This document shows positions 4,591-9,057 of a stretch of 30,572 bases of DNA, one piece after another. The translations under genes were made by a program, and so were the position numbers. Source of the DNA: Candidatus Hermodarchaeota archaeon (GTDB taxonomy: Archaea > Asgardarchaeota > Hermodarchaeia > Hermodarchaeales > Hermodarchaeaceae). The first letter of the stretch is position 1. The number at the start of each line of letters is the position of its first letter. The notes beneath the pieces were generated by a model, which worked only from the letters and a program-made list of their open reading frames with translations, had not been told where the DNA came from and did not search any database. Location of the stretch: positions 1 through 30,572 of the forward strand of contig JAEOTO010000028.1 of the NCBI GenBank assembly GCA_016839805.1, read 5' to 3'.

Positions 4591-5751
4591 CTAGCGGGGA
4601 AGGTATTCATAGCCTCGGTACCCTTTGCGGCGTTGAAGTTTCTTTTTATCAAAGAGTTTCTTCAATTCGTTTGATGCTGTTCCCTTCGTAATCCCAACTT
4701 CTTCAGCAACTGTAGCTGTGGTGACACTTCTCCTTTCTTTCGCCAGAGCTAAGATTTCACGTTGAGTTGCCGTAAGCTCATCAAATTCAGTGAACCAGTC
4801 ATCCTCATCATCGATTGTGCTGGTTTCAATGAATCGTTCTTCGTCGAGTGGTGAGGGAATTAATGTGGTAGGAATGGGTGGACTTGGTCGTTGTTTCACG
4901 ACTTGTTGCACAAAATCACTGGTAATACGATCACCAGAGGGTGTATCCTCTTGAAAAGCTAGGGAAATGATGTTTTCACAAAATCGAAGTGTGCTTCGTG
5001 GAATCCCGCGAGTATGTAGGTGAATTTCATCAAGAGCTTCTGCAGTAAATGGAGTAATGCCCTTACCACCAAAGTGCCGGATTCGCTGACGAATGAGCTG
5101 TTCCATCTCCTTCCGAGAAAGAACTTCTGGTCCCCCGTCCCCCTCTGATTCAAGGGAAAATTGTAGAGTCACTCGTTCAGCTACAGGTGGAAAAATACTC
5201 ATTAAAGCCTTAGTAAACCCAGTTAATCCAGCAATAAACACAACGACAGCGGGCAGGTCACTCAGCACTCGAAGCCATCGCACTGTCTTTCGCTTTTCAA
5301 ACTCGATACTCTCAGAATCCTCTTGTGTCAACGCTAAGCTTTGTCCATCATCAATCATCAAAACAATTCGTTGTTTACTCTGGGTATGAAACTCACGAAC
5401 CTTCGCAATCAGTTCATCAATTAGAACCGGAGTCGTTTTGATCTTCATCATCAAATGCTGTTTGAACAGTGATACCAAAGCATTACTCAGTAATGTAGAA
5501 TTCAAAGGTTCAGATATCAGACACGGAACCATCTGTGATAAGGATGACACGTAATCATTAAACCAACGAAGGATGTGGGTTTTACCCGTTCCCCGACCTC
5601 CCTCGATAAGAACGATATTACCAGTTCTCAGTTGAACAGTTAATGGATTGAGTAAGCGTTTTTCAGCTGCAAATACATCTGGCATAACATCAATACGAAA
5701 TGGAAAATCAGACCAGCCGAGGCTCTTTAATCGTTCATCGAAGGCGAACAT
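4591..5751 (-). CDS. ExeA/GspA-like AAA+ ATPase with C-terminal winged HTH
   Basis: N-terminal LGWSDFPF, Walker A GGRGTGKT, Walker B LMIDDGQ, and ExeA-type lid LSRKEMEQLIRQRI...PFTAEALDEIHLHTRGIPR. A Pro/acidic linker leads to an HTH (LTATQREIL...TATVAEEVGITKGTASNELKKL...GYEY). Confidence 0.8.
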   Translation of the reverse strand: MFAFDERLKSLGWSDFPFRIDVMPDVFAAEKRLLNPLTVQLRTGNIVLIEGGRGTGKTHILRWFNDYVSSLSQMVPCLISEPLNSTLLSNALVSLFKQHLMMKIKTTPVLIDELIAKVREFHTQSKQRIVLMIDDGQSLALTQEDSESIEFEKRKTVRWLRVLSDLPAVVVFIAGLTGFTKALMSIFPPVAERVTLQFSLESEGDGGPEVLSRKEMEQLIRQRIRHFGGKGITPFTAEALDEIHLHTRGIPRSTLRFCENIISLAFQEDTPSGDRITSDFVQQVVKQRPSPPIPTTLIPSPLDEERFIETSTIDDEDDWFTEFDELTATQREILALAKERRSVTTATVAEEVGITKGTASNELKKLFDKKKLQRRKGYRGYEYLPR

Positions 5752-5840
5752 CTGCTTATCACTATCCGATCAGCAATTGTGATTATTCACCACGTTTCCT
5801 TACTTCATGTATTCAGCTTCTTCGTCCCAGTCTCCATGAC

Positions 5841-6122
5841 TCATGCGTCAGAAAGTACTCCGTCGCCCATCCGACCCAAGAAATTGTTATTAGCGAAGGG
5901 ACAGATGACCTCGATACCTGCCGTTGGATTATAGGCAACCTGTTCTTTTCCTATCGGACAGAACAAGGCACAATATCCTCCGTCAACAAGTCGACCATTT
6001 CGTTGACAAGTGAATGTTCTGGCTGTTGGCGTAATTAGTTCAAGTATGGCATTTGCATCGAGCTGTTCCAGGGCTTGTTCGAGTCGTAGTTTTGGTTGAA
6101 GCGCTTTGACCTTATTACTCAC
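5841..6122 (-). CDS. Small hypothetical protein with four Cys (possible metal binding)
   Basis: 93 aa with C-x11-C-x3-C-x18-C. Its GTG start overlaps the TGA stop of the upstream ORF (GTGA), indicating translational coupling. Confidence 0.65.
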   Translation of the reverse strand: MSNKVKALQPKLRLEQALEQLDANAILELITPTARTFTCQRNGRLVDGGYCALFCPIGKEQVAYNPTAGIEVICPFANNNFLGRMGDGVLSDA

Positions 6123-6322
6123 GAGTGCCTCACCTCTTTTCGTCGCTTCGCAAGAAGTTCTTCCTCGCGAAGCTGTGCAATTGTACGGGCAATACGGACA
6201 CGAAGCGTTGCCGTCACCAAGGGCATTGATTCTTTAAGTTGCTCCTCAATGCTAGGGGCTTGGAGACGAGCGAGTGCGTCGGTTCGTGCTCTCCCAGACG
6301 CGGTTGCTTTGTCGATTGCCAT
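6119..6322 (-). CDS. Small basic helical hypothetical protein
   Basis: 67 aa, ATG start, 4-nt overlap with the next ORF, TATA-like element about 55 nt upstream. Confidence 0.6.
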   Translation of the reverse strand: MAIDKATASGRARTDALARLQAPSIEEQLKESMPLVTATLRVRIARTIAQLREEELLAKRRKEVRHS

Positions 6323-6390: not shown

Positions 6391-6660
6391 CATACATTCT
6401 ATACAGCGTTTAAGGCATTTAGAAAAGCACATGATTGAGGATTCTATGGAATAGGTTTAGTCAGAACACACAAGTGATGGAATAGATTTCCAGAAAAAAG
6501 ACATAAAACGGTTATTTTTAAGAATTTGGTTTTAAGTCGTCCATTAGAAATTCAAAATGAACATTAAAACGCCCCGAATGTGATCATCCAATCGCGCCAA
6601 TTCACGAGATTATTGAGATCTACTAATTATCTGGAAAATGCTATTATGACACTTTTGGGG

Positions 6661-6962
6661 GTTGAACCCAGCCCGTATCACTCCAGCTTTCGGTCCTGGC
6701 GAATCTCAAGCCCAGCAGAAACGCACCGGTTAGCCCGTGTTACACATCATACTGGCTGGGCACCGTCAGACTTCGCCACGCACCGAGGGACCTTTCCAAG
6801 GGACCCAGCCCACCCGTCACGCGGGGCACTGGATCACGTCCCCTTGCCGCCAGACCAGCGTCATCGCGCACACCGTTGCTGGGGTGCCTCCGTCTGGAGC
6901 GGCAAGTACCCCCGTTGCCAGGGGTCACCGTTCACAACATCAAATGAGAAACAGCCTAAATC
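6661..6962 (-). ncRNA. Putative TnpB guide-scaffold RNA (omega/reRNA-like), ~300 nt
   Basis: Directly downstream of the tnpB stop and GC-rich. Stems visible: ACCCCTG-GCAA-CGGGGGT (6908-6925, GNRA loop); CTTGCCGC/GCGGCAAG (6843-6850 with 6899-6906) extended by CAGAC/GTCTG; GGCTGGG/CCCAGCC (6754-6760 with 6804-6810); CCAG-gaccgaaag-CTGG. Ends in TTCAA(C), like the TCAA right-end motif of IS608/ISDra2. Confidence 0.7.
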
Positions 6963-8402
6963 CTAAGTCCTACACTGCACATACCTCCTGGCCAACACTG
7001 TTGCCGCATTTACATCCCGTGGAACCACCGCATTACATGCTGGGCACCTGAAGATCCGCTGCCACCGATGCCGGTAATTGATTTGCCCACACTTGCAACA
7101 TGTCTTGCTAGAGAACCGCGTATCCCGAGTAGATAGTTCCACTACGGGAATTGCCTTCCATAAAGCCTTCTCCCGGATGCGCCGGTGGAGTTGACCCCGG
7201 GCCCACACGCTCAAGACAAAACGGGTCACCCGCCGCCACAGTGGCGTACGATTCCGTGCAAACCGAAGATCCCGCAGATTCTCCAACACAATTACCACCA
7301 CGCCTTGCTGTCGAGTTGCATAGTCGACCACCGCCCTGGCTGCCACATGGGTCCAGTGATCCACTATCCGCTTAATTTTAGCATCAATACGATGCAGTAC
7401 CCCCTTGGCCTGGCGACGTGCAACGGTGCGGCGCTGCTGCCATTGGACTCGGAGTTGATGACAGAACTGACGCCCCGACACGCACTTAGCAGCTTGGGGC
7501 ACATTCTGGCGCAGAGCCACGGCTGCCACTAAGGTGTTTGCCCCGATATCGACGCCCACGACGGTCTCTGGTGACTCCCTCCGTAGATCAGGGACTTGGA
7601 CCTTCCGCACCACCGGCACCGCCAAATGGGGGATACCCCCACGCAGAAGGAGGCGTGGTTCCCCGACCCGTAGCCCTCCCCTTCGATTCAGCGCCCGCTG
7701 GAGGATTCGCAAAGGTTGACCGCCTAGCTGCCATCGAGTTCGTCCGAGACCCAGAGAGGGGTCTCCGCTGCGTGAGGGACCTGGTAACCGAATGGTGCCA
7801 CCGCGGCTTTGCGGAGAGGTAACAGGAGCCCAAGCTGATCGCATTAACCGGGCAGGTCGCGTCAACCCACCTGAGGTGCTACCTGGGAAGCCCCACCCGG
7901 GCCAGGTGACAAACTCGCTGAAGGGTGCAGAAAGCAGCTGCAGGGGATGCCGGGTGGTATCCTTGAGTGGCTGGAGTAATGGCATGGGTCTCTCTGGGCT
8001 TTGACTCCCTGAGTCTTTGGATTCTGTCATCACCCCCTTGAGCCAACAAATGGTTTGGACGACGGTGACATTGGTGAGGCGAGTGAAAGTCTCGGTGCGG
8101 CGTATTCGGTTTTCTATCCAGTGGAGGAGTTCTGTGGCTTCGTTACAGGCTTCATCGAGGAGCATGGCGTTGAGGGCAGCAAAGTTTGGGATCTTCCGCA
8201 TGGTCTGATACATCTGTTTGGTGGCTTCGCGTTGGACCTTCCACGATTTGCCTATCATCCCTTGGGTGAAGAGTTGTTGGAGGGCAAAGGTCACCGCTTC
8301 GGTGTAGCGGGTATTAATGGTGACCAGTTGGTCGGGGTGGAGGTCGGGGAGGCGGCAATGGAGGGTTTTAATCGCTTGCTGACGGAATAGTGATGAGGTC
8401 AT
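6963..8402 (-). CDS. tnpB: RNA-guided endonuclease TnpB / Cas12f-like protein (479 aa)
   Basis: RuvC-I VVGVDIG, bridge-helix region SGRQF...RR...HWTHVAARAVVDYA, RuvC-II IVLENLRDLR, zinc finger CCKCG...FRCPACN, RuvC-III PRDVNAA. The D-E-D triad is intact. Confidence 0.93.
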   Translation of the reverse strand: MTSSLFRQQAIKTLHCRLPDLHPDQLVTINTRYTEAVTFALQQLFTQGMIGKSWKVQREATKQMYQTMRKIPNFAALNAMLLDEACNEATELLHWIENRIRRTETFTRLTNVTVVQTICWLKGVMTESKDSGSQSPERPMPLLQPLKDTTRHPLQLLSAPFSEFVTWPGWGFPGSTSGGLTRPARLMRSAWAPVTSPQSRGGTIRLPGPSRSGDPSLGLGRTRWQLGGQPLRILQRALNRRGGLRVGEPRLLLRGGIPHLAVPVVRKVQVPDLRRESPETVVGVDIGANTLVAAVALRQNVPQAAKCVSGRQFCHQLRVQWQQRRTVARRQAKGVLHRIDAKIKRIVDHWTHVAARAVVDYATRQQGVVVIVLENLRDLRFARNRTPLWRRVTRFVLSVWARGQLHRRIREKALWKAIPVVELSTRDTRFSSKTCCKCGQINYRHRWQRIFRCPACNAVVPRDVNAATVLARRYVQCRT

Positions 8403-8514
8403 CCGAGGTCATCTCTCCTAGATAGTGTTTGTTGGGGGTTCCAGGTGTGAGCGCGGAATTTGGTTTATTTTTATGGCTTTCGGTGGACCATTCGAGGGAC
8501 ATCAGTGGTGGGGA

Positions 8515-8570
8515 ATTAGAGGTCTCTAATGGACAGTAGTGGTGTGGGATAGATAAGGTCCACAACTGTC
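8515..8570. repeat. Two adjacent inverted repeats upstream of tnpB (candidate left-end hairpins or operator sites)
   Basis: ATTAGAG-GT-CTCTAAT (8515-8530) and GACAGT..TGTGG-[12 nt]-CCACA-ACTGTC (8532-8570). Confidence 0.5.
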
Positions 8571-8612
8571 TGAGTGAAGATCCAAAAGGAAAGAGATGTT
8601 GAATAGCGGTCT

Positions 8613-8908
8613 AATTGGGACTGTTACAAAGAAATGGAAGCAGTTTCCAATGAATTGGTAGTTGTTGCCATCAATTGGACCATGAATTGTCAACCGTTGA
8701 ACCGGAGATTCTGGCTCTGGCAACCGTTACCACAACCGATGATGTTGTTAAGGGAAATATCCCTTGAAAGCTATCGTTTTAGGCGAAAGCTATGTCCTGA
8801 AATAGCTCTTCTATTGATAGCAACAGAGGCGCCAGAGAATATTATAAGCTCGCCTGCTGTAAGGGTTGTCCACGGGAACCGTTGAGAACTTGTCAGAACA
8901 ACCGATGC
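8613..8908 (+). repeat. Cluster of short dispersed direct repeats in non-coding DNA
   Basis: (C/G)AACCG(T/A)T at 8691, 8721, 8733, 8876, 8899; AATTGG at 8613, 8653, 8673; GAAAGCTAT at 8766 and 8785; palindrome AAGGGA-AATA-TCCCTT at 8750-8765. Confidence 0.55.
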
Positions 8909-9057
8909 GCTTAATGAAAACAGCATTTGTGGAGCAACTAAAAGTAGCATGAAACAAGAGGAATAGTGATATTCTGACAATTTTCGAGTTTATTATGACA
9001 GTTTTAGGCAGGATACCATGTTCGTTGTCTTATCTGGATACTTCATAATTCTTGAGC

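What the first reader, a model, noticed from the sequence alone, without database searches (positions are those of the whole stretch)
6640..8402. Transposase-free, catalytically intact TnpB/Cas12f-like nuclease with a large free-standing downstream RNA
Seen: intact RuvC D/E/D and zinc finger, no tnpA, no CRISPR array and no cas genes. About 300 nt of GC-rich DNA after the stop codon forms nested stems (GNRA hairpin, 8+5 bp stem, 7-8 bp stem, imperfect terminal stem) and ends GGGTTCAAC. GC content then drops, giving a predicted guide starting (C)CCCCAAAAGTGTCATAATAG. Known: well-studied TnpB reRNAs such as ISDra2 are shorter and overlap the 3' end of the CDS, whereas Cas12f uses a separate downstream tracrRNA plus array. 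Inference: an expanded-scaffold single-guide system between TnpB and Cas12f in an Asgard host, of interest for Cas12/Fanzor evolution and as a compact editor. This is the best candidate for a new system in the window.
Basis: partly seen in the sequence, partly recalled or inferred. Interest (0 to 1): 0.8.

Follow-up and report, generated by a model that had tools for sequence, protein, structure and literature searches.

The report
Solo TnpB element with long guide RNA

Summary
The observation largely holds. Window 6963-8402 (minus strand) encodes a 479-aa TnpB with invariant RuvC D285/E374/D463 and a CCxC...CxxC zinc finger. No tnpA, cas1, serine recombinase or CRISPR array was found. The ~275 nt after the stop codon (6935->6657) is better conserved than the CDS (76-86% vs 68-70% nt identity). 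It folds into 97 pairs, 10 of them with compensatory changes, and matches no Rfam family.

This is an ordinary IS1341-type (tnpB-only) IS200/IS605 element, about window 8603->6630. Stand-alone copies of its omega-RNA occur in metagenomes, and decayed copies occur in four sister genomes. The scaffold is only about 1.2-1.4 times the 231-nt ISDra2 omega-RNA. Nothing places it between TnpB and Cas12f.

Conservation does not stop at TTCAAC, which is the loop of a variable hairpin. It runs through a further 27-nt module (M1, 6656->6630) present in all eight copies, and the flanks differ only after CCAGA. M1 base-pairs with the scaffold with covariation, so the guide most likely starts at 6629. M1 is also a free-standing repeat across the genus, which leaves a minority reading: a fixed guide against a host repeat. 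Interest is moderate.

The parts
8403..8603 (-). Left end (LE) and tnpB leader. The strongly conserved core starts at 8564 (TGTGGACCTTATCTATCC). A weaker conserved ~40 nt reaches about 8599-8603. A TATA-like CATAAAAATAAAC lies at 8475-8463, about 60-70 nt upstream of the ATG.
   Evidence: The upstream alignment of 7 copies loses strong similarity upstream of TGTGGACC. BLAST homology with L021 ends at 8567. Homology with element-free loci of sister genomes (L047, L051, L053) ends at about 8599-8604. The TATA-like box is conserved in the homologues; its role as a promoter is inferred.
6963..8402 (-). tnpB CDS, 479 aa, with intact RuvC D285/E374/D463 and a zinc-finger/TNB domain. The N-terminal ~220 aa have almost no relatives.
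6657..6935 (-). Omega-RNA (reRNA) scaffold, about 279 nt, starting GTGAACGG 28 nt after the stop codon. It forms eleven helices and ends in a hairpin of variable sequence (about 6680-6657).
   Evidence: Copies share 76-86% nt identity here against 68-70% in the CDS. RNAalifold gives 97 pairs; 10 have compensatory changes against 4.4+/-1.4 in shuffles (0/500) and 0-3 in slid controls. Metagenome contigs holding the RNA without tnpB diverge exactly at 6935. No Rfam match at E<=1.
6630..6656 (-). M1 terminal module, AAAAGTGTCATAATAG-CATTTT-CCAGA. It is probably the last part of the right end and of the omega-RNA. Its first 17 nt pair with scaffold positions about 6691-6703.
   Evidence: Present after the scaffold in 8/8 copies, always with spacer CAYTTT against 6/52 of the other genus sites (Fisher p=1e-4 to 1e-6). 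The scaffold-M1 helix has 92% of cells paired, with C-G/U-A/U-G and G-U/U-G/U-A/A-U variation. Similarity between copies stops at 6626-6630.
6610..6629 (-). Most likely guide segment (TAATTAGTAGATCTCAATAA), transcribed from flanking host DNA. The ~20-nt length is assumed by analogy, not measured.
   Evidence: This is the first non-conserved DNA after the element; eight different sequences occupy this place in eight copies. Its role as guide is inferred from the known TnpB mechanism (PMC10691335).
8805..9040 (-). Neighbouring 'R body' repeat, not part of the element. It is a genus-wide ~235-nt repeat starting TCCAGAT. It holds two M1-like boxes (9005-8990, 8984-8969) and is followed by a conserved small ORF (8723 to about 8600) that the element abuts.

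Best explanation
Window ~8603-6630 (minus strand, ~1.95 kb) is a tnpA-less, IS1341-type member of the IS200/IS605 family in an Asgard archaeon. It encodes a catalytically intact TnpB. Its 3' UTR is an omega-RNA of ~279 nt of GC-rich scaffold plus a 27-nt AT-rich terminal module (M1) that folds back onto the scaffold. Transcription reads through the right end, so the RNA acquires a ~16-20-nt guide from the flanking DNA, starting at 6629. By analogy with characterised TnpBs, the TnpB-RNA complex cuts DNA that carries a TAM followed by that flank sequence, namely the empty donor site, which promotes retention or homing of the element. Mobility must come from a transposase supplied in trans, and none was found in this genome. 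The RNA module also exists without tnpB, as stand-alone omega-RNA copies in metagenomes and as 5'-truncated remnants in sister genomes. Shown here: gene, catalytic residues, conservation, RNA structure, element limits, stand-alone copies. Inferred: RNA processing, guide position, cleavage, TAM.
For: TnpB identity and intact catalytic and zinc residues. The family is rare: 6 close homologues, and 8 representatives below 1e-30 among 1.84e9. The downstream RNA is more conserved than the CDS and shows significant covariation. Element limits come from 7 copies and from element-free sister loci. In metagenomes X2 and X3 the RNA module has 2-4 times the depth of the tnpB body, and contigs branch off at 6935 into a TTTAAATA-containing sequence and at 6626-6630 into several different flanks. 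Scaffold fragments of 75-147 nt plus M1, without tnpB, occur in G093, G094, G096 and G102. M1 pairs with the scaffold with covariation. The M1 spacer subtype is specific to scaffold-linked copies. Flanks after CCAGA are unrelated in all 8 copies. Sister TnpBs of the genus also have ~250-nt conserved downstream regions. The literature describes IS1341 solo TnpB, stand-alone omega-RNAs and TnpB 3' ends near transposon ends (PMC10691335).
Against: No expression data exist. No TAM could be derived, because the sequences left of the LE differ between copies. No clean empty site was recovered. M1-like boxes also occur without any scaffold in 13 of 14 genomes of the genus, with a sharp 5' edge against several different left-hand partners. 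GC content drops at the 5' edge of M1, not its 3' edge. The M1 allele (ATAG-CATTTT or ATAA-CACTTT) does not follow scaffold relatedness: L020 and L021 are closest yet differ. Covariation rests on only 4-8 related sequences. There is one copy per genome and no transposase, so the element may be immobile now.
Confidence: 0.62

Rival explanations
1. M1 is not part of the element. It is host DNA, and the right end stops at the terminal hairpin (6657). The natural guide of every copy is then the same sequence (AAAAGTGTCATAATAG...). This would be a TnpB whose guide is fixed on a genus-wide 27-nt intergenic repeat, so that the element homes to, or cuts at, M1 sites.
For: M1 occurs 1-9 times in 13 of 14 genus genomes against about 0 for the reversed control, and most of these genomes lack this TnpB. 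Its 5' edge is a junction with many different partners, including joints 6656->6744, 6656->6786 and 6656->8857 in metagenome contigs. A perfect 16-nt match lies at C33:41527 and a 31-nt match at C33:40264. GC content falls at 6657. The M1 allele is incongruent with scaffold relatedness. All four decayed copies keep M1 while losing their 5' parts.
Against: M1 pairs with the scaffold with compensatory variation, which a free guide should not do. The bipartite conservation (15 nt, a looser 6 nt, then CCAGA) looks like a protein site or a structural end rather than a 16-20-nt target. No common TAM precedes free M1 sites. A nuclease guided to several perfect genomic sites would be self-toxic. In every characterised TnpB the guide begins where conservation between copies ends.
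Confidence: 0.23
2. The locus is an immobilised, possibly domesticated TnpB-RNA pair, or a cassette bounded by M1 recombination sites that an unknown site-specific recombinase moves. It would serve a host or other-element function rather than IS200/IS605 transposition.
For: There is one copy per genome, and no Y1, serine-recombinase or Cas1 transposase in this genome. Only an unrelated IS605 occurs in one of 19 family genomes. Homology blocks between genomes begin and end at M1 sites, for example L035 against C33:42495-41512, and the 136-nt unit C33:13041-13176 sits in different contexts. M1 sites fill every intergenic gap of C33:40-43.5 kb in one orientation.
Against: The catalytic triad is intact, whereas known domesticated TnpBs are mostly inactivated (PMC10691335). 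Copies sit in unrelated contexts in different metagenomes. Decayed remnants in sister genomes argue against selection for a host function. No recombinase candidate is linked to the locus.
Confidence: 0.1
3. The downstream conserved region is not an RNA. It is only the DNA-level right end, a set of transposase-binding hairpins acting in single-stranded DNA, and the real guide RNA lies elsewhere or is absent.
For: IS200/IS605 ends act as ssDNA hairpins. No RNA data are available.
Against: About 280 nt and eleven covarying helices are far more than a transposase-binding end needs. G-U/U-G pairs are tolerated on the sense strand. Stand-alone copies carry a TATA-like box about 25 nt upstream of the scaffold start. 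The position and size match known omega-RNAs.
Confidence: 0.05

Closest known systems
ISDra2 TnpB with its omega-RNA/reRNA (IS200/IS605; PDB 8EXA, 8H1J)
   Same: RuvC D-E-D plus zinc-finger TNB nuclease. A single guide RNA is encoded at the 3' side of tnpB and runs into the right end, with the guide taken from flanking DNA. Scaffold size is comparable (231 nt in ISDra2).
   Different: The sequence match is very weak and confined to the C-terminal ~85 residues (E=4e-3). The protein is 70 aa longer, with an N-terminal half that has almost no relatives. The RNA lies wholly downstream of the stop codon instead of overlapping the CDS. There is no tnpA, and a 27-nt AT-rich terminal module sits between the GC-rich scaffold and the variable flank.
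IS1341-group (tnpB-only) elements and stand-alone omega-RNAs (Altae-Tran et al. 2021 as summarised in PMC10691335; archaeal sotRNAs, Rfam RF02656/RF02657)
   Same: Solo tnpB flanked by asymmetric ends and presumably mobilised in trans. RNA-only copies occur in the same communities. The host is archaeal.
   Different: No match to any Rfam family, the sotRNA families included, even at E<=1. The RNA does not overlap the CDS. The terminal module is shared with other repeats of the host genus.
Cas12f (type V-F) and TranC intermediates
   Same: Similar size, and a homologous RuvC/TNB half (E about 1e-5 to 1e-7).
   Different: No CRISPR array, no repeat-spacer unit and no separate tracrRNA. The similarity to Cas12f is no better than to Cas12g, Cas12m or TnpB. 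No evidence of a split RNA.
TldR and other exapted TnpBs with conserved guides
   Same: If M1 were the guide, every copy would carry the same guide aimed at a conserved host sequence.
   Different: The RuvC triad is intact here, whereas TldRs are nuclease-dead. The copies lie in unrelated contexts and decay in sister genomes. M1 appears to be structural.
Asgard aCas1-associated TnpB groups (PMC10691335)
   Same: Asgard host. The region downstream of tnpB has a variable stretch bounded by conserved motifs.
   Different: No Cas1 in the genome. The variable stretch here is a self-complementary hairpin with compensatory changes, not a spacer. The conserved downstream motif differs from the one described (GTTCACTCA).

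Membership tests
TnpB (OMEGA nuclease, IS200/IS605 superfamily) | RuvC-like domain with a D-E-D catalytic triad | tested here: met
   D285 (VGVDIGAN), E374 (VLENL) and D463 (PRDVNAA) are invariant in 6 homologues. PF01385 scores 29.9 bits, just below its 30.5 cut-off. The profile aligns to the RuvC of Cas12g, TnpB and Cas12f.
TnpB (OMEGA nuclease, IS200/IS605 superfamily) | Zinc-finger / target-nucleic-acid-binding (TNB) domain inserted in RuvC | tested here: met
   PF07282 scores 53.4 bits against a cut-off of 26.3. CCxC...CxxC is invariant.
TnpB (OMEGA nuclease, IS200/IS605 superfamily) | N-terminal WED/REC fold | tested here: inconclusive
   No Pfam hit in residues 1-260. The AF2 model is poor, with pLDDT 41. 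Language-model neighbours are 'IS605 OrfB fragment' clusters at score 0.94, which is a lead only.
TnpB (OMEGA nuclease, IS200/IS605 superfamily) | Conserved structured omega-RNA at the 3' side of the gene, reaching the transposon right end | tested here: met
   the scaffold-M1 helix.
TnpB (OMEGA nuclease, IS200/IS605 superfamily) | Variable guide directly after the conserved RNA | tested here: met
Eight unrelated flanks follow CCAGA.
TnpB (OMEGA nuclease, IS200/IS605 superfamily) | RNA-guided, TAM-dependent DNA cleavage; RNA bound by the protein | not testable with these tools
   No RNA runs hold the locus. No TAM could be derived.
IS200/IS605 element (IS1341 subgroup) | Asymmetric ends, no target duplication, tnpB only, copies in different contexts | tested here: met
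   The LE and RE are unrelated in sequence. Seven or eight copies lie in unrelated flanks. No tnpA was found.
IS200/IS605 element (IS1341 subgroup) | A cognate Y1 (or serine) transposase available in trans | tested here: not met
   None in this genome, which is 87% complete. The only Y1 TnpA among 19 family genomes belongs to an unrelated IS605 without M1 ends. Absence from incomplete MAGs is not proof.
Cas12f / type V CRISPR | Adjacent CRISPR array (and tracrRNA) | tested here: not met
   No tandem or spaced repeat array in the window. The M1-like boxes are not arranged as repeat-spacer units.
TldR-type exapted TnpB | Inactivated RuvC and a fixed genomic context with a conserved guide | tested here: not met
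   The triad is intact and the contexts differ.
Rfam omega-RNA/sotRNA families (RF02656, RF02657) or any other Rfam family | Covariance-model match | tested here: not met
   No hit at gathering score or at E<=1.

The most novel reading that the evidence does not exclude
M1 is the natural guide and target. This TnpB lineage would be locked onto a 27-nt intergenic repeat found throughout an Asgard genus. Its cuts at M1 sites would drive the homing of the element and the cassette-like reshuffling of genes seen between M1 sites. That would be an RNA-guided nuclease acting as a recombination engine on a host repeat family.
Probability: 0.15. Interest if true: 0.8.

Novelty: new member of a known kind. 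Interest (0 to 1): 0.4.

Why it matters
The locus adds a rare TnpB clade from an Asgard host: 8 cluster representatives below E=1e-30 among 1.84 billion. It comes with a defined, covariation-supported ~300-nt omega-RNA that no Rfam family covers, and with natural RNA-only copies. This is useful raw material for compact-editor mining and for TnpB/Fanzor phylogenies. It does not change the picture of how these systems work. The less ordinary point is the 27-nt AT-rich terminal module. It is shared with other small repeats of the genus and marks the ends of homology blocks between genomes. It may identify the still-unknown machinery that moves tnpA-less elements in these archaea.

Tried and rejected
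(1) Expression: no RNA holder is listed for the locus, so the RNA ends could not be mapped.

(2) The AlphaFold2 model from the 6-sequence alignment was too poor to search with (pLDDT 41).

(3) Genome contigs (protein patterns and a 21-nt scaffold word) and viral contigs gave nothing. The metagenome scan added only a duplicate and a 3'-truncated copy.

(4) Empty-site search. Sister-genome loci L047, L051 and L053 share the left flank up to about 8600. Their right side is not significantly similar to the window's right flank: local score 18 against a shuffle mean of 17.9. A grid of joined-flank alignments gave two near-tied solutions. No decisive empty site was obtained.

(5) The 10-nt match TCGGTGGACC between C33:40264 and window 8481-8490 first looked like an empty site. 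It lies inside the conserved LE, and the C33 site is better read as a hairpin-plus-M1 remnant.

It is not conserved in any homologue, so it was dismissed as chance.

(7) TAM derivation failed, because the left-flank ends differ between copies.

(8) The only Y1 TnpA in the family (G093) belongs to an unrelated IS605 without M1 ends.

(9) The idea that the variable stretch before M1 is a spacer-like guide, as in the aCas1-TnpB loci, was rejected. It is self-complementary in every copy, with compensatory changes.

(10) No complex prediction was run.
Full report
**The gene.** The window has one long ORF at 6963-8402 on the minus strand, 479 aa.
- Pfam finds the Cas12f1-like TNB domain (53 bits) and OrfB_IS605 (29.9 bits, just under its cut-off) in the C-terminal half, and nothing in residues 1-260.
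- Six homologues of 66-68% identity exist in metagenomes. In their alignment D285, E374 and D463 and the CCxC...CxxC cysteines are invariant.
- An exhaustive search of 1.84 billion cluster representatives finds only 8 proteins below 1e-30. More distant hits cover only residues ~220-478. This is therefore a small, divergent TnpB clade with an almost private N-terminal half.
- A profile search of the PDB hits Cas12g, Cas12m, a TnpB (9nzp), Cas12f entries and, weakly, ISDra2 TnpB. All hits lie in the RuvC/TNB region.
- A structure prediction was too poor to use (pLDDT 41).
- Language-model neighbours of the N-terminal part are IS605 OrfB fragments, which is a lead only.

**What is absent.**
- The 2.3-Mb, 87%-complete genome has no Y1 transposase, no serine recombinase and no Cas1.
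- The window has no repeat array.
- The neighbouring genes (an AAA_22 ATPase with a wHTH, two small ORFs, and a longin-like protein) show no link to transposition.
- The host is an Asgard archaeon. The adjacent M42 peptidase has its best named relatives in Promethearchaeota and Hodarchaeota MAGs.

**The downstream RNA.**
- Aligning the regions after the stop codon of the four homologues with enough DNA shows strong conservation starting 28 nt after the stop (GTGAACGG, window 6935).
- Pairwise nucleotide identity of this non-coding stretch is 76-86% between the window and the others, against 68-70% for the CDS.
- RNAalifold predicts 97 pairs in 11 helices. 96.4% of cells are paired.
- Ten pairs carry compensatory double changes, against 4.4+/-1.4 in column shuffles (0 of 500 reach 10) and 0-3 when partners are slid.
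- The window sequence alone folds only slightly better than shuffles (z -1.8 to -2.5), as expected for GC-rich RNA.
- No Rfam family matches, even at E<=1. Rfam does hold the archaeal sotRNA/omega-RNA families RF02656 and RF02657 (PMC12558985).

**Where the conserved part ends.**
It does not.
- TTCAAC is the loop of a terminal hairpin whose stem changes with compensation from copy to copy: TGGG/CCCA, TGGT/ACCA, TGAGC/GCTCA.
- Directly after the hairpin every copy has the same 27-nt module, which I call M1: AAAAGTGTCATAATAG, a 6-nt spacer CAYTTT, then CCAGA (window 6656-6630).
- Only after CCAGA do the sequences become unrelated. This holds for the window, for three metagenome copies and for four remnants in sister genomes, eight contexts in all.
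- It also holds for further contigs in two metagenomes that branch off at 6626-6630.

**Is M1 the guide or the end of the element?**

For M1 as host DNA, hence a fixed guide:
- The motif occurs 1-9 times in 13 of 14 genomes of the genus, while the reversed control is almost absent. Most of those genomes lack this TnpB.
- It occurs alone or in small arrays in this genome, mostly on contig C33.
- Its 5' edge abuts many different sequences.
- The GC drop lies at its 5' edge.

For M1 as part of the element:
- All eight scaffold-linked copies have the CAYTTT spacer, against 6 of 52 other sites (Fisher p 1e-4 to 1e-6).
- The MFE fold pairs M1 with the scaffold: GYUR-GA-GUGRYAY ... GUGUCAU-AA-UARC.
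- On the eight-sequence alignment, 92% of cells in this helix are paired, against 24-58% when slid.
- Pair 208:258 takes the forms C-G, U-A and U-G. Pair 214:253 takes G-U, U-G, U-A and A-U. The covariation score is exceeded by 9 of 500 shuffles.
- This also explains why the two M1 alleles do not follow scaffold relatedness.
- A guide should not be sequestered in a helix, and in all characterised TnpBs the guide starts where copies cease to be alike.

I therefore place the right end after CCAGA (6630) and the guide from 6629 downwards, with about 0.6 confidence. The fixed-guide reading stays at about 0.2-0.25.

**The left end.**
- Seven copies share a strongly conserved block starting TGTGGACCTTATCTATCC (window 8564), preceded by a weaker conserved ~40 nt.
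- Element-free loci in three sister genomes share the window's upstream DNA: a ~235-nt repeat, then a conserved ~40-codon ORF. That similarity ends at about 8599-8604.
- The element is thus about 1.95 kb, from about 8603 to 6630. This is larger than the reported 6640-8402.
- No common TAM could be read from the left flanks, and no clean empty site was recovered.

**Copies without the gene.**
- In mangrove and sediment metagenomes the RNA module (6630-6935) has 2-4 times the depth of the tnpB body.
- Four contigs leave the window sequence exactly at 6935 for a shared sequence containing TTTAAATA about 25 nt upstream, which looks like an archaeal TATA box. These look like stand-alone omega-RNA genes, a known phenomenon (PMC10691335).
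- Four species genomes of the genus carry 5'-truncated scaffold fragments of 75-147 nt plus M1 and no tnpB. The family is therefore old and decaying in this genus.
- This genome has one intact copy and eight unrelated or distantly related tnpB genes.

**Comparison with the known.**
- tnpB-only elements are the IS1341 group.
- TnpB 3' ends normally lie within 250 bp of the transposon end. Here the distance is 333 bp.
- The ISDra2 omega-RNA is 231 nt. Here the RNA is 279 nt, or 306 nt with M1.
- Sister TnpBs of the same genus (37-40% identity) also have ~250-nt conserved downstream regions that do not overlap the CDS.
- 'Expanded scaffold' is therefore a modest quantitative difference.
- Nothing supports an intermediate position towards Cas12f. 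There is no array and no split RNA, and the similarity to Cas12f is no better than to other type V effectors.

**Verdict.** This is a genuine, intact TnpB/omega-RNA element of a rare Asgard clade, with a new RNA family and natural RNA-only copies. It is a new member of a known kind. The real curiosity is that this module is also a free-standing, co-oriented repeat of the genus at which homology blocks between genomes begin and end. I could not explain that.

Noticed in passing
own genome C33:40264-43465, C33:13041-13067, C33:16661-16687; window 8969-9005: The 27-nt M1 motif (AAAGTGTCATAATAG-N6-CCAGA) sits, always in the same orientation, in every intergenic gap of a four-gene stretch of contig C33. 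It recurs in co-oriented clusters in sister genomes. Homology blocks between genomes start and stop at M1 (for example L035 544-1530 = C33:42495-41512), like gene cassettes bounded by a recombination site.
   Followed up: partly
window 8805-9040 (minus strand): A ~235-nt 'R body' repeat is present in 7 of 15 genus genomes (6 matches in G104). It always begins (A/T)TCCAGAT after unrelated DNA. It holds two M1-like boxes 21 nt apart and a TTATAATA box, and it lies upstream of a conserved small ORF.
   Followed up: partly
window ~8600-8723 (minus strand); L047 1305-1427: A conserved ~40-codon ORF (…PEHKSPQQRLTIH..D.NN[WY]Q[LF]I..CF.F…) lies downstream of the R body in several genomes. In the window it is frameshifted and runs into the left end of the TnpB element. 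It has no Pfam hit.
   Followed up: partly
own genome C33:13041-13176: A 136-nt unit ending in a small hairpin plus M1 recurs at 77-84% identity in G093, G101, G102 and G104. Its downstream neighbours differ each time, so it behaves like a miniature mobile element sharing the TnpB element's 3' end.
   Followed up: partly
L029/L042 (G094:C14) 1376-1526: A decayed copy holds the last 125 nt of the omega-RNA scaffold plus M1 (83% identity to the window). It lies directly downstream of an ABC-2 permease gene and has no tnpB.
   Followed up: yes
own genome C22:25808-26557 (L002) and C10, C22, C26, C41, C42, C46: Eight further TnpB-like ORFs occur in the genome. The closest (39% identity over the RuvC half) has orthologues in sister genomes and its own ~250-nt conserved downstream region without M1.
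   Followed up: partly
window 4591-6322 (minus strand): Two small ORFs and an AAA_22-type ATPase with a C-terminal wHTH lie 300 nt downstream of the element. This module is not found next to the homologous elements, so it is probably unrelated.
   Followed up: partly
L061 (G093:C208:1-2307): This is the only Y1 TnpA among 19 genomes of the family. It is a classic IS605 with divergent tnpA and a 381-aa tnpB of another clade, and it has no M1-like ends.
   Followed up: yes
L019 1-83 versus window 8704-8786: A metagenome copy whose TnpB is only 67% identical sits next to flank DNA that is 90% identical to the window's. The insertion is about 100 nt further upstream in the same small-ORF locus. 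Two diverged elements therefore lie in nearly the same place in related hosts.
   Followed up: partly
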